Part shown: positions 55,828 to 58,424 of the stretch, piece after piece
Layout: every line of letters begins with the position of its first letter
Numbering within the stretch: the stretch's first letter is position 1
Position numbers and translations under genes: made by a program
The notes under the pieces: model-generated
What the model was told of the DNA's origin: nothing
The model's input: only the letters and a program-made list of their open reading frames with translations
Database searches by the model: none
Assembly: GCA_027067575.1 (NCBI GenBank)
Contig: JAMOVQ010000012.1
Coordinates: 1 to 63,990 of the forward strand
Source: Thermoanaerobaculia bacterium
GTDB taxonomy: Bacteria > Acidobacteriota > Thermoanaerobaculia > Thermoanaerobaculales > Sulfomarinibacteraceae
Reading direction: 5' to 3'
Length of the DNA stretch: 63,990 bases

Positions 55828-55913
55828 GCCGGAGTGGCGGAATGGCAGACGCAGGGGACTCAAAATCCCCCGAGGGTCACCTCGTGCGGGTTCGACTCCC
55901 GCCTCCGGCACCA
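55828..55913 (+). tRNA. tRNA-Leu(CAA)
   Basis: GCCGGAG/CTCCGGC acceptor stem, TGGCAGAC D-loop, GGGGA-CTCAAAA-TCCCC anticodon arm, long variable arm, GGTTCGACTCC, encoded CCA. Confidence 0.95.
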
Positions 55914-55920
55914 CATCCGC

Positions 55921-56316
55921 TCAATCCACGGCCTCCCCGCGGATCCTCGCGGCCGTCTCCACGAGGCGGGCTTGCGCCTCCCGGTCCACCGGCGGAAGCG
56001 GGAAGTCCGCAAGGCTGTTCGTCGGCAGAAGGTGGACGTGAACGTGGGGCACCTCGTACCCGACCACCATGGTCACCACCCGGGCGCAGCCCGTCCGTTC
56101 CTTGAGGAGCGCGGCCACCGTCCGCGCTGCATCCCACAGCCGGTGGTAGGCCTCTTCCGGCATGGAGAACAGCTCCTCGTGGGGGTGCTTGGGGATCACG
56201 AGCGTGTGCCCCTCGACCCTCGGGTTGATATCGAGGAAGGCCAGGTGCTCCCCGTCCTCCCAGATCCTGTGACACGGGATCTCGCCCGCCACGATCCGTT
56301 CGAAGATCGTCGCCAT
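55921..56316 (-). CDS. HIT family nucleotide-binding protein
   Basis: TIFERIV.GEIP, FLDINP..EGHTLVIPK, VPHVHVHL triad. Confidence 0.92.
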   Translation of the reverse strand: MATIFERIVAGEIPCHRIWEDGEHLAFLDINPRVEGHTLVIPKHPHEELFSMPEEAYHRLWDAARTVAALLKERTGCARVVTMVVGYEVPHVHVHLLPTNSLADFPLPPVDREAQARLVETAARIRGEAVD

Positions 56317-56354
56317 GTGCGCCTCCCCTCATGACCGCCGCGAACCCCTGCCCC

Positions 56355-56397
56355 TTGACGGAACAACGGGGCACGGCTATATTCCTCGATGATTATA
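56355..56397 (+). promoter_or_regulatory. Sigma70 promoter with overlapping inverted-repeat operator
   Basis: TTGACG(56355)-N17-TATATT(56378); TATATTC-N6-GATTATA imperfect palindrome at 56378-56397. Confidence 0.75.
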
Positions 56398-56410
56398 AAG
56401 GAGGGTGCCG

Positions 56411-56776
56411 GTGCGAGCCCTTCCGTCCGACGAAGTCCTCGAGAAGATCGCCGATGTCTTGAAGGCGCTCGCCGATCCGACACGTCTCCGGATCCTCCAC
56501 GTGCTGCAGGACGGGGAGCTGTGTGTCAGCGACATCCTGGGCCATGTGGGGGGAAGCCAGGCCAACGTCTCGAAGCACCTGTCCGTGCTCAAACGCGCCG
56601 GGCTCGTCGGATGCCACCGGGAGGGGCTGAACGTGTTCTACCACATCTCGGACGACGGCGTCTTCGCCATCTGCCGCAACGTCTGCGACTCCCTGCAGAT
56701 CCGCCTCGACCGTGAACGTGAGACGCTGGCGGAGGCGAGAAGCCGCATGGACACGGGAACCGGGTCCCCGGACTGA
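56411..56776 (+). CDS. ArsR/SmtB-family transcriptional repressor, Cys-containing
   Basis: AAGGAGG SD then GTG 56411; LKALADPTRLRIL, ELCVSD, SQANVSKHL, C-terminal ICRNVC. Confidence 0.92.
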   Translation: MRALPSDEVLEKIADVLKALADPTRLRILHVLQDGELCVSDILGHVGGSQANVSKHLSVLKRAGLVGCHREGLNVFYHISDDGVFAICRNVCDSLQIRLDRERETLAEARSRMDTGTGSPD

Positions 56777-56801
56777 CGGCGAACCCATCGGAGTGAACCT
56801 G

Positions 56802-57005
56802 ATGAACGACCACCGAGGAACGACGACGACTCCGGCCATCCCCACGGGCACCTGCCCGGACTGCCGGGGCGAGGTGCTGCCGGTCCCGACTTGAGGAGCC
56901 ATTCTCTGGCGGTGCCGGAGCTGCAAGAACGTGTTCTACACAGGCCAGGTCTTTCCGGACGGCGTGCCGCTCGATGTGTGGCAGCGGCTCCCGTTCGGCT
57001 GCTGA
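56802..57005 (+). CDS. Candidate selenoprotein: 67-aa zinc-ribbon protein CPDC-x9-U-x6-CRSC (Sec at codon 31, TGA 56892-56894)
   Basis: GGAG SD then ATG; the two CxxC knuckles lie on either side of the TGA in one frame; SECIS-like hairpin follows. Confidence 0.7.
56904..56920 (+). promoter_or_regulatory. Putative bacterial SECIS element 1
   Basis: CTCTGGC-GGT-GCCGGAG, 7-bp stem (one G-U pair); loop begins 16 nt after the TGA. Confidence 0.65.
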
Positions 57006-57014
57006 GGAGGAACC

Positions 57015-57224
57015 ATGCCGATCTACGAGTACCGCTGTCTCGAATGCGGCGCCGTCTTCTCGAAGCTGCAGCGGGTTGGCGCGACCAGCGAGGGCGTGCG
57101 GTGCCCGAAGTGCGGCTCCGAGAAAGTGGAGCGCATGCTGTCCACCTTTGCCTCGGGCTCCTCGAGCGGAACCGGAACCTCAACCGGTGCGGCGTCGTGC
57201 ACGGGGTTCACCTGAGGCGTCTGA
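57015..57224 (+). CDS. FmdB-family zinc-ribbon protein, candidate selenoprotein (...SCTGFT-U-GV*); ends at 57215 if the TGA is a stop
   Basis: GAGGAGG SD; MPIYEYRCLECG..F..CPKCGS..VERMLSTFA; TGA 57213 followed by GGC GTC TGA and a SECIS-like hairpin. Confidence 0.85.
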
Positions 57225-57228
57225 CCCG

Positions 57229-57249
57229 ATGCCGCCAGGCTGGCGGCAT
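57229..57249 (+). promoter_or_regulatory. Putative bacterial SECIS element 2 (alternative: U-less terminator between convergent genes)
   Basis: ATGCCGCCA-GGC-TGGCGGCAT perfect 9-bp stem; loop 22 nt after TGA 57213; no U-tract on either strand. Confidence 0.55.
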
Positions 57250-57293
57250 GCACGGTGAACACAGACACACCCCGACCGGGAGGACCGGGAGCG

Positions 57294-58424
57294 TCAGGGC
57301 TCCGGTGAGTTTCGCTTGAGTCGCAACAAGCCACGGTCCAGAAGTCCCTTCATGCGAAGCCGGTTCTCCATGGCATCGCCCGGGATCAGCTTGAGGACCT
57401 CGTCCACCGTGTAGATACCGTTGATCCGGGAGAGGAGAAACCCCTCCTCGGGACCGCACTCGACGTTGGGCAGGTCGGCCATGGAGATGGCGAGCTCGGG
57501 AACCGCCCTGTCGTCGAGCCCCGAACGGTCCAGGGCCTCCTGGATCCGAGACCGGAACGTCCCCAGGAGCTCTGCAACCTTTCGCTGGCTTCCGTACTTT
57601 TCTTCCAGGCCGGTGAGGCCTGCGAGGGCATCCAGCAGACGGCCCTCCGCCAGCGCCCGCTCCACGTCCTTGACGAGAAACCTCCAGGCGCCTCCGCCCA
57701 GGCCGGGGATCGGCTCCGGCTCACCCGAGGGAGGCAACAGCTCGAAGACACCCTGCTGGATCCCCTGGAAGACGAAGTGAGCAACATGGAACGTGGCGAT
57801 CCGGCAGTTGAGTGCGATCCGCTCCACGCTGTTCGCCCCGTCGATCTCCCTGAGAATCGCGATCTCCACCGGTCCCATCTTTCGCACATCGAGCGCCCGG
57901 ACGATCCTTGGCACGTGAGCCGCGTCTGGGACCACATCCCGGATCCTCTGCCACTCGTCCTTGCGGCGGACCCCCTCGAGAATCAACAGGTCTACCGGAA
58001 TCGCCTGAGCCTGGAACTTTCGGGCTGGCAAGATGTTGTCCAGGAACCGGAACTCCCCCTCATCCCAGAGGAACAGGTCGTAGATCAGCTCCTCGGTCTT
58101 GACCCGGAGGATCCGATCGAGCTCCTCCCGGTTGAGCCGGCCGATCATCACGAGCAGCTCTCCGAGCATGGTGCCGTGCCGTTCCTGGAGCTGGAGCATG
58201 TGCTCGAGCTCCTCCTCGCCCAGGATTCCCCAGCCCACGAGGTAGTAGCTGAGAAACTCCTTCGGGTTGTCCGAGGCCGACGCCGTGATGGAGCCATCCT
58301 GGAAGTAGATCTTCTTCTGGAAGGCGTCCCCGCTCACCACGAGCGTACCGGTCTTCGCACTCTGCGCCACCCACTGGAGCAGGTCGGCGAAGGGCATTGT
58401 TCGAAGGTTTCCGCTGATCGACAC
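57294..58424 (-). CDS. DUF4388 (PATAN-like) domain protein
   Basis: ISGNLRTMPFADLLQW..KTGTL..KKIYFQDG, LFLWDEGEFRF, LILEGVRRKDEW. Confidence 0.85.
   Translation of the reverse strand: MSISGNLRTMPFADLLQWVAQSAKTGTLVVSGDAFQKKIYFQDGSITASASDNPKEFLSYYLVGWGILGEEELEHMLQLQERHGTMLGELLVMIGRLNREELDRILRVKTEELIYDLFLWDEGEFRFLDNILPARKFQAQAIPVDLLILEGVRRKDEWQRIRDVVPDAAHVPRIVRALDVRKMGPVEIAILREIDGANSVERIALNCRIATFHVAHFVFQGIQQGVFELLPPSGEPEPIPGLGGGAWRFLVKDVERALAEGRLLDALAGLTGLEEKYGSQRKVAELLGTFRSRIQEALDRSGLDDRAVPELAISMADLPNVECGPEEGFLLSRINGIYTVDEVLKLIPGDAMENRLRMKGLLDRGLLRLKRNSPEP

What the first reader, a model, noticed from the sequence alone, without database searches (positions are those of the whole stretch)
57015..57249. 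FmdB-family gene may end in C-T-G-F-T-U-G-V rather than at its apparent stop
After ...ASCTGFT comes TGA-GGC-GTC-TGA. A perfect 9-bp hairpin with a GGC loop lies 22 nt after the first TGA but only 13 nt after the second, so SECIS spacing fits the first. It has no U-tract on either strand. A flexible Ser/Gly tail carrying a Cys...Sec pair near the C-terminus would act as a redox arm attached to a zinc ribbon (inference).
Basis: partly seen in the sequence, partly recalled or inferred. Interest (0 to 1): 0.65.

Follow-up and report, generated by a model that had tools for sequence, protein, structure and literature searches.

The report
Zinc-ribbon protein ending in selenocysteine
The apparent stop codon of this small zinc-ribbon gene is almost certainly read as selenocysteine, so the protein is three residues longer than databases show, and the same hidden ending occurs in its relatives across many bacterial phyla.

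Summary
The FmdB-family gene (57015, + strand) reads ...SCTGFT-TGA-GGC-GTC-TGA. A perfect 9-bp hairpin with a GGC loop starts 22 nt after the first TGA and has no U-tract.

- All 50 orthologs from the same family and order have TGA as first stop and a second in-frame stop exactly two codons later (TGA, TAG or TAA).
- In 82 such genes, 78 carry a G+C-rich hairpin whose G-G/U loop lies 16-24 nt after the first TGA. The background after TGA stops in this genome is 3.6%.
- The hairpin stems covary at all six pairs.
- In a phylum sample the TGA-type ending occurs in 44 of 66 SelB-positive genomes and 0 of 8 SelB-negative ones. The latter have Cys-rich tails ending in TAA or TAG.
- The genome has SelA, SelB, SelD and tRNA-Sec.
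- Two other selenoprotein genes in it carry the same kind of SECIS, one directly upstream in the same ArsR-led operon.

The protein therefore most likely ends C-T-G-F-T-U-G-V. Public entries are cut at the UGA.

Known FmdB selenoproteins carry Sec in the N-terminal CxxC instead, so this is a new variant using the standard mechanism. The function (redox or metal-binding arm) is inferred only.

The parts
57015..57224 (+). FmdB-family zinc-ribbon selenoprotein gene as re-read: 69 codons (MPIYEYRCLECG...SCTGFT-U-GV) plus the true stop
   Evidence: Pfam PF09723 and TIGR02605 match residues 1-47. Translation with TGA=U. The TGA-xx-stop ending is present in 50/50 orthologs.
57213..57215 (+). UGA read as selenocysteine (residue 67)
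   Evidence: TGA is invariant in 82 genes of this tail type, while the second stop varies: 61 TGA, 13 TAG, 8 TAA. The type occurs only in SelB-positive genomes.
57216..57221 (+). Gly-Val codons translated after the Sec codon
   Evidence: The dipeptide is GV, GI, GA, AS, AG and similar in orthologs. The first base after TGA is G in 70/75, and entropy rises from codon position 1 to 3 in the first codon.
57222..57224 (+). true stop codon (TGA here; TAG or TAA in some orthologs)
57229..57249 (+). SECIS element: 9-bp stem with GGC loop, loop 22 nt after the Sec codon, lying in the 3' untranslated region
   Evidence: A hairpin is present in 78/82 orthologs, with an invariant loop G and six covarying pairs.
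57006..57010 (+). GGAGG ribosome-binding site of the FmdB gene, directly after the stop of the upstream small gene
   Evidence: The same arrangement is seen in orthologous loci.
56802..57005 (+). upstream small gene: dual-CXXC small selenoprotein candidate with in-frame TGA at 56892-56894 and SECIS CTCTGGC-GGT-GCCGGAG at 56904-56920
   Evidence: The in-frame TGA and the hairpin are conserved in 10 genera. NF041197 matches at E 8.5e-5, which is below its cut-off.
56405..56776 (+). ArsR/SmtB-family metalloregulator, first gene of the presumed operon
   Evidence: Pfam HTH_5 and NCBIfam NF033788 at 96 bits. It lies directly upstream of the FmdB gene in 30/30 loci.
56355..56383 (+). sigma-70-like promoter candidate (TTGACG-17-TATATT) upstream of arsR
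   Evidence: consensus match only

Best explanation
The gene at 57015 encodes a 69-residue selenoprotein. It has an N-terminal four-cysteine zinc ribbon (residues 1-44), a disordered Ser/Gly/Thr linker, and a C-terminal end ...S-C62-T-G-F-T-U67-G-V. The UGA at 57213 is decoded as selenocysteine by the standard bacterial route: SelB carrying Sec-tRNA(Sec) binds the hairpin at 57229-57249, whose G-G loop sits 22 nt downstream. Translation then adds Gly-Val and ends at the second TGA. Because Sec is the third-last residue, the SECIS lies entirely in the 3' UTR. The gene is the last in an arsR / dual-CXXC small selenoprotein / fmdB operon.

Shown: the recoding signature, its conservation, and its link to the Sec machinery.

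Inferred: the invariant Cys and the Sec on the flexible tail form a selenenylsulfide or chelate a soft metal or metalloid. I put redox arm versus metal ligand at about even odds. The zinc ribbon would dock the arm onto a partner.
For: - Stop pattern: 50/50 orthologs in 31 genera of the same family and order have TGA as first stop and a second stop exactly 2 codons later. Genome-wide, TGA is only 67.5% of stops.
- Second stop: in 82 such genes it is 61 TGA, 13 TAG, 8 TAA. The extension is 2 codons in 68, 1 in 12, 3-4 in 2.
- Conservation: it ends right after the second stop.
- Hairpin: 78/82 have a SECIS-like hairpin against a 3.6% background. The loop lies 16-24 nt from the UGA in 79/82. Loops are GGC, GGU, GGUC or CGKGN, with one invariant G.
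- Covariation: all 6 stem pairs show compensatory changes, 114 cells against 22 in shuffles, score 0.878 against 0.19, and 0.10-0.23 when the partner is slid.
- Sec machinery in this genome: SelB 317 bits, tRNA-Sec 78.7 bits with anticodon TCA, SelD, SelA.
- Link to SelB: in the phylum sample the TGA type occurs in 44/66 SelB-positive and 0/8 SelB-negative genomes, one-sided hypergeometric p about 4e-4 (my recount, C(30,8)/C(74,8), of the tallies; one search used 46/66 and gave 2e-4). SelB-negative genomes have tails such as ...CSTCSLTSCDSCS-TAA, with no hairpin and a last Cys 1-2 residues from the end.
- Other SECIS in this genome: a PrdB/GrdB-like gene (U-P-L-C motif, E 4e-29) has ACCGGACC-GGC-GGTCTGGT 18 nt after its UGA. 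The upstream dual-CXXC gene has CTCTGGC-GGT-GCCGGAG 16 nt after its UGA.
- No terminator is called in the region.
- Structure model: ribbon pLDDT 77-89, tail about 50.
Against: - There is no direct evidence of selenium incorporation, and no transcript or proteome data.
- The Sec/Cys correspondence lies in a low-complexity tail, so it rests on position (last Cys 1-2 residues before the stop), not on a firm alignment.
- The hairpin alignment was anchored on the hairpin found in each sequence. The percentage paired is therefore partly circular; covariation and the background rate are the informative figures.
- Orthologs are phylogenetically related, so the counts are not independent events.
- Rfam has no matching SECIS model.
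- The function is untested.
Confidence: 0.9

Rival explanations
1. The first TGA is the real stop. The hairpin is a transcript-end structure (a terminator shared with the convergent DUF4388 gene, or an mRNA-stabilising stem-loop), and the second TGA is incidental.
For: The hairpin lies between two convergent genes. TGA is the commonest stop in this genome. Gene callers and public records end the protein at the first TGA.
Against: - There is no U-tract, and 0 terminators are called.
- An in-frame second stop exactly 2 codons on in 50/50 orthologs is not expected of untranslated sequence. Nor is a Gly/Ala-biased first codon.
- The loop G is invariant while the stems covary.
- The same hairpin type follows internal UGA codons in two other genes, where termination makes no sense.
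- The DUF4388 neighbour is present in only 12/30 loci, while the hairpin is nearly universal.
- This ending is absent from SelB-negative genomes.
Confidence: 0.05
2. The UGA is leaky and is read through by a near-cognate tRNA (Trp or Cys) or is simply backed up by a tandem stop. No selenium is involved.
For: UGA is the leakiest stop, and tandem stops are a known safeguard (general knowledge). The extension is very short.
Against: - Read-through needs no SelB-type hairpin at fixed distance.
- It would not be restricted to SelB-positive genomes.
- A tandem-stop safeguard would not preserve the residue types of the two codons in between.
Confidence: 0.03

Closest known systems
FmdB-family selenoproteins predicted from Global Ocean Sampling reads (Zhang & Gladyshev 2008, PMC2398784; listed under TIGR02605 in reviews PMC9312934 and PMC13188914)
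   Same: Same protein family (TIGR02605/PF09723 zinc ribbon). Both are predicted to use UGA-encoded Sec with a bacterial SECIS.
   Different: The two GOS sequences carry Sec inside the first zinc knuckle (MPIYEYSUQEUGH..., MPIYDYKCSNUGQ...; supplementary file 4). Here both knuckles are Cys (C8, C11, C30, C33) and the Sec is the third-last residue of the tail. The GOS type rests on two reads with no database accession, whereas this type is found in most SelB-positive genomes of the phylum sample.
UXX-star selenoprotein families (NCBIfam NF041211 'gluta_UXX_star_2', NF041212; Haft & Tolstoy 2025, cited in PMC13188914)
   Same: Sec is followed by two residues and then the stop, so the SECIS must lie beyond the ORF. 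Glycine lies near the Sec.
   Different: Those are glutaredoxin-like proteins. NF041211 does not match this protein. Here the fold is a zinc ribbon with a disordered tail. I could not read the original paper.
C-terminal Gly-Cys-Sec-Gly arm of mammalian thioredoxin reductase, and its expression in E. coli from a SECIS placed after the stop codon (Arner et al. 1999; recalled, not checked here)
   Same: A Cys/Sec pair sits on a flexible C-terminal tail, with Sec one to two residues from the end. A bacterial SECIS works although it is not translated.
   Different: In that enzyme Cys and Sec are adjacent and the arm belongs to a large flavoenzyme. Here Cys and Sec are 4-8 residues apart on a 7-kDa zinc-ribbon protein of unknown partner.
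E. coli fdhF SECIS (paradigm; loop GGUC with essential G and U; recalled)
   Same: A stem-loop about 20 nt after the UGA whose apical loop starts G-G/U. Several orthologs even have a GGUC loop.
   Different: It lies wholly in the 3' UTR, has no obvious bulged U, and has a triloop in this window.
Cys-type FmdB tails (for example ...CSSCSLTSCDSCS, ...CCGGGCGCH; TIGR02605 members)
   Same: Same N-terminal ribbon and low-complexity linker, with a Cys 1-2 residues from the C-terminus where this protein has Sec.
   Different: They have several CxxC pairs instead of one Cys plus one Sec, TAA/TAG stops and no hairpin.

Membership tests
Bacterial SelB/SECIS-dependent selenoprotein gene | In-frame UGA conserved among orthologs, with coding constraint continuing beyond it | tested here: met
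   50/50 close orthologs and 82 genes in the phylum have TGA plus 1-4 codons plus a stop. The second stop varies in identity, and Gly/Ala dominates the first codon.
Bacterial SelB/SECIS-dependent selenoprotein gene | Stem-loop shortly downstream of the UGA with G in the first loop positions (bSECIS consensus, recalled: loop 16-37 nt from UGA) | tested here: met
   The loop GGC is 22 nt after the UGA. 78/82 orthologs pass against a 3.6% background. The loop G is invariant and 6/6 pairs covary.
Bacterial SelB/SECIS-dependent selenoprotein gene | Genome encodes SelA, SelB, SelD and tRNA-Sec | tested here: met
Bacterial SelB/SECIS-dependent selenoprotein gene | Cys-containing homologs with Cys at the Sec position | tested here: inconclusive
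   Cys-type tails end C-x(1,2)-stop, which is positionally equivalent to U-x(1,2)-stop. The low-complexity tails cannot be aligned with confidence.
Bacterial SelB/SECIS-dependent selenoprotein gene | Selenium shown in the protein (75Se label or mass spectrometry) | not testable with these tools
   No experimental data.
FmdB family zinc ribbon (TIGR02605 / PF09723) | N-terminal MPxYEYxC-xx-C ... C-P-x-C ribbon scoring above the curated cut-off | tested here: met
   TIGR02605 61.2 bits (cut-off 31.3). PF09723 61.6 bits (cut-off 34.4).
GOS-type FmdB selenoprotein (U/CxxU in first knuckle) | Sec replaces a Cys of the first CxxC | tested here: not met
   The window has C8 and C11 encoded by TGT/TGC.
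[quoted passage not shown] | Match to the glutaredoxin-like profile above 100 bits | tested here: not met
   No hit at E<=1 for this protein. The model's best hit in the genome is elsewhere and below the cut-off.
[quoted passage not shown] | Sec followed by two residues and the stop | tested here: met
   U-G-V-stop
Intrinsic (Rho-independent) terminator | G+C-rich hairpin followed by a U-tract | tested here: not met
   No T run on either strand, and 0 sites in the scan.

The most novel reading that the evidence does not exclude
FmdB zinc-ribbon proteins with a C-terminal Cys...Sec-x-x end may be a large selenoprotein group missing from current catalogues. The group spans many phyla: Acidobacteriota, Nitrospirota, Chloroflexota, Desulfobacterota/Thermodesulfobacteriota, KSB1 and others. 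In this lineage the gene sits in an ArsR-controlled operon with a second tiny zinc-ribbon selenoprotein. Together they could form a selenium-dependent redox or metal(loid)-handling module. That module could be a main reason why genomes without formate dehydrogenase keep the whole Sec machinery.
Probability: 0.45. Interest if true: 0.72.

Novelty: new variant of a known kind. Interest (0 to 1): 0.6.

Why it matters
- Annotation: public records cut this protein, and by extension a large share of FmdB-family entries, at the Sec codon. They lose the one residue most likely to carry the chemistry.
- Selenoproteome size: recognising the group would enlarge the known selenoproteome of Acidobacteriota and several other phyla. 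It would also help explain why genomes without FdhA keep the Sec machinery.
- Function: the FmdB family has been 'putative regulatory protein' since 1996. A Cys...Sec arm and a conserved ArsR partner give it a first concrete handle.
- Method: this is a natural case of a bacterial SECIS lying wholly in the 3' UTR, which is relevant for selenoprotein gene finders that require coding sequence downstream of the UGA.

Tried and rejected
- Genome-wide scan for TGA plus SECIS-like hairpin: too noisy in this G+C-rich genome, where most long frames are antisense artefacts. After filtering on composition it recovered only this gene and a PrdB-like gene.
- Rfam search of 56700-57400: no SECIS family, only two chance hits.
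- NCBIfam scan for a dedicated model: only the generic TIGR02605. NF041211 turned out to be glutaredoxin-like.
- The search for related loci with a 15-sequence alignment failed for lack of a conserved stretch. A 5-sequence alignment worked.
- The Haft & Tolstoy 2025 paper is not held. I therefore cannot exclude that it, or current PGAP rules, already cover this subgroup.
- Literature searches found no description of a C-terminal Sec in FmdB proteins.
- FdhA, sought as a third SECIS example, is absent from the genome.
- I did not build a covariance model. A 21-nt hairpin model has too little information for a 3-Mb G+C-rich genome.

Full report
**The observation**

The + strand ORF at 57015 translates to MPIYEYRCLECGAVFSKLQRVGATSEGVRCPKCGSEKVERMLSTFASGSSSGTGTSTGAASCTGFT. 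It is followed by TGA (57213-57215), GGC GTC, and a second TGA (57222-57224). The protein is an FmdB-type zinc ribbon: Pfam PF09723 at E 7e-17 and NCBIfam TIGR02605 at 61 bits against a cut-off of 31.

A perfect 9-bp hairpin follows: ATGCCGCCA / GGC / TGGCGGCAT at 57229-57249. Its loop begins 22 nt after the first TGA and 13 nt after the second. No U-tract follows on either strand, and a terminator scan of 56300-57500 finds nothing.

**Can this organism make selenoproteins?**

Yes. The genome (3.08 Mb, 191 contigs) encodes:
- SelB, 317 bits against a cut-off of 242.
- tRNA-Sec, 78.7 bits with anticodon TCA.
- SelD, 363 bits.
- SelA, 496 bits.

**The comparative test**

I searched 60 relatives from the same family and order with the protein, reading through stops. 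Many of the best hits in these genomes align across one TGA. I extracted 50 orthologous genes from 31 genera. All 50 have TGA as the first stop, and all 50 have a second in-frame stop exactly two codons later. That second stop is TGA, TAG or TAA. Sequence conservation ends right after it.

The consensus ending is C-x(4-8)-G-F-[T/S]-TGA-[G/A]-x-stop. The first base after TGA is G in 70 of 75 genes. Entropy in the first codon after TGA rises from position 1 to position 3 (0.40, 1.23, 1.59 bits), as expected for a translated Gly/Ala codon.

Across 82 genes of this type, the second stop is 61 TGA, 13 TAG and 8 TAA. That is close to the genome's own stop usage of 67.5%, 28.5% and 4%. The first stop is TGA without exception.

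**The hairpin**

Among the 82 genes, 78 have a stem of at least 5 pairs with a loop that starts G-G/U (or x-G-G/U in pentaloops), placed 16-24 nt after the first TGA. None of the 6 Cys-type genes in the same sample has one.

The same filter passes only 3.6% of TGA-terminated long ORFs in this genome. Loop distance from the UGA is 16-24 nt in 79 of 82 genes, with a mode of 18-21.

I made an ungapped, loop-centred alignment of 69 hairpins. It has one invariant column, the loop G, followed by G or U. All six stem pairs show compensatory changes:
- 114 cells changed on both sides, against 22 +/- 4 in shuffles.
- Covariation score 0.878, against 0.19 in shuffles and 0.10-0.23 when the 3' partner is slid.

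A caveat applies. The alignment was anchored on each sequence's own hairpin, so the 97% paired figure is partly by construction. The covariation and the background rate carry the weight.

Stems as different as TTAAGGCA/TGCCTTAA, GGCCACG/CGTGGCC and GACCGTC/GACGGTC occupy the same place. Some loops are GGUC, which I recall as the loop of the E. coli fdhF SECIS.

**Link to the Sec trait**

I sampled 201 genomes of the phylum. SelB is present in 160 of them. I read the best FmdB hit of 74 genomes.
- The TGA-plus-short-extension type occurs in 44 of 66 SelB-positive genomes.
- It occurs in 0 of 8 SelB-negative genomes. The one-sided hypergeometric p is about 4e-4, which I recomputed from the corrected tallies; the script used 46/66 and gave 2e-4.
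- Of the SelB-negative genomes, six have Cys-rich tails such as ...CSTCSLTSCDSCS or ...CSSCSTHNCGSCH, a seventh has ...CDIPPCSLDGICRRD, and the eighth has an unrelated tail.
- The Cys-rich tails all end in TAA or TAG, and none of the eight has a hairpin.
- In the Cys-type tails the last Cys lies one or two residues before the stop. This is the position that Sec holds in the TGA type.

That is the expected Sec/Cys relationship. However, the tails are low-complexity, so the correspondence is positional, not a firm alignment.

**Is the hairpin of the kind SelB reads in this organism?**

Two other selenoprotein genes in the same genome say yes.
- A PrdB/GrdB-family homolog on contig C114 matches TIGR04483 at E 4e-29, with the alignment spanning the UGA. 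It has the classical U-x-x-C motif (U-P-L-C). The hairpin ACCGGACC / GGC / GGTCTGGT sits 18 nt after its UGA.
- A small frame at 56802-57005, directly upstream of the FmdB gene, reads ...CPDCRGEVLPVPT-TGA-GAILWRCRSCKNVFY...C. The hairpin CTCTGGC / GGT / GCCGGAG (56904-56920) sits 16 nt after its TGA. This in-frame TGA, the flanking residues on both sides and the hairpin are conserved in ten genera.
- That upstream protein is a sub-threshold match to NF041197, 'dual CXXC motif small (seleno)protein' (E 8.5e-5, 22.6 bits against a cut-off of 40). This family is the 'hypothetical protein DW' of the deep-Sep paper (PMC12013277; PMC13188914).

All three SECIS elements share a G+C-rich stem and a GG(C/U) triloop.

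**Context**

- An ArsR/SmtB-type regulator (56405-56776; NF033788 at 96 bits) lies directly upstream on the same strand in 30 of 30 loci.
- It has sub-threshold similarity to TsoR, the regulator of a described selenoprotein neighbourhood.
- A sigma-70-like promoter candidate precedes it at 56355-56383.
- The FmdB ribosome-binding site GGAGG follows the stop of the dual-CXXC gene at once.

The three genes therefore look like one operon. The convergent DUF4388 gene is conserved in only 12 of 30 loci. This argues against the hairpin being a shared terminator.

**Structure**

An AlphaFold2 model was built on a 33-sequence alignment. It gives a confident ribbon (block pLDDT 77-89, three strands) and a low-confidence tail from residue 45 on (pLDDT about 50). 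This fits a flexible arm.

In that alignment, which includes sequences from other phyla, one tail Cys (C62) is invariant and lies 2-8 residues before the Sec.

**Breadth**

A scan of one genome per species returned 80 FmdB loci from many phyla. About 20 have the same signature of TGA, 1-5 codons, a stop and, in all but one of them, a G-G/U-loop hairpin. Their record titles name Acidobacteriota, Nitrospirota, Chloroflexota, Delta/Thermodesulfobacteriota, KSB1, 'Cytophagia' and unclassified MAGs. The rest have Cys-rich or unrelated tails.

**Comparison with what is known**

- *GOS FmdB selenoproteins.* FmdB is listed as a predicted selenoprotein family from two GOS reads (PMC2398784). Their sequences, held in a supplementary file, carry Sec in the first zinc knuckle: MPIYEYSUQEUGH... 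and MPIYDYKCSNUGQ.... This is a different site.
- *UXX-star proteins.* A 'Sec, two residues, stop' ending has been named 'UXX-star' for glutaredoxin-like proteins (NF041211/NF041212; PMC13188914). NF041211 does not match this protein.
- *Public records.* Close homologs in public databases are all cut at the UGA and are named 'zinc ribbon domain-containing protein'.
- *Catalogues.* Those I could read do not mention a C-terminal Sec in FmdB proteins: the 2022 and 2026 reviews, and the main texts of the deep-Sep and BSepDB papers. BSepDB's supplementary table of families was not checked.
- *Gap.* I could not read Haft & Tolstoy 2025.
- *Earlier notes of this scan.* They report the same ending in other genomes. 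They agree with my result but are not independent evidence.

**Verdict**

The recoding mechanism is the ordinary bacterial one, with the SECIS in the 3' UTR.

What is new is the place of the Sec in this family and how widespread and unannotated the type is. I rate it a new variant of a known kind. The proposed role of the Cys...Sec tail, as a redox arm or a metal ligand under ArsR control, is inference and needs experiments.

Noticed in passing
window 56802-57005 (+): An unannotated small gene lies between arsR and fmdB. It reads CPDC...PVPT-TGA(56892-56894)-GAILWRCRSC...C, with a SECIS-like hairpin at 56904-56920. The in-frame TGA and the hairpin are conserved in 10 genera. It is a divergent relative of NF041197 'dual CXXC motif small (seleno)protein', scoring below that model's cut-off.
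   Followed up: partly
window 56405-56776 (+): An ArsR/SmtB metalloregulator lies directly upstream of the FmdB gene in 30/30 orthologous loci. It has sub-threshold similarity to TsoR (NF045707) and BigR. Its effector is unknown.
   Followed up: partly
own genome, contig C114, minus strand: TGA at offset 3766 of the reverse-complemented contig (34598 nt), i.e. about 30830 in + coordinates: A PrdB/GrdB-family selenoprotein B homolog has an in-frame TGA (U-P-L-C motif) and the SECIS ACCGGACC-GGC-GGTCTGGT. It scores far below the equivalog cut-offs, so it is probably a distinct subfamily.
   Followed up: partly
own genome (whole): The full Sec machinery is present (SelA, SelB, SelD, tRNA-Sec), but there is no formate dehydrogenase alpha match at E<=1e-20. 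The selenoproteome seems to consist of small or unusual proteins.
   Followed up: partly
own genome, contig C116:23730-23861 (-): A second FmdB-type paralog (tail ...GSGWYVTDYGRG..., acidic/Gly-rich, no Sec signature) lies about 850 nt from the tRNA-Sec gene (C116:24711-24804). The adjacency may be chance.
   Followed up: no
loci L197, L211, L227, L124: In these FmdB homologs the first TGA is followed by a SECIS-like hairpin, but the next in-frame stop is more than 5 codons away. They may be Sec variants with longer C-terminal extensions.
   Followed up: no
window 55828-55909 (+): The Rfam tRNA-Sec model scores 39.8 bits here, below its gathering score. This is probably an ordinary long-arm tRNA, and its identity was not checked.
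   Followed up: no
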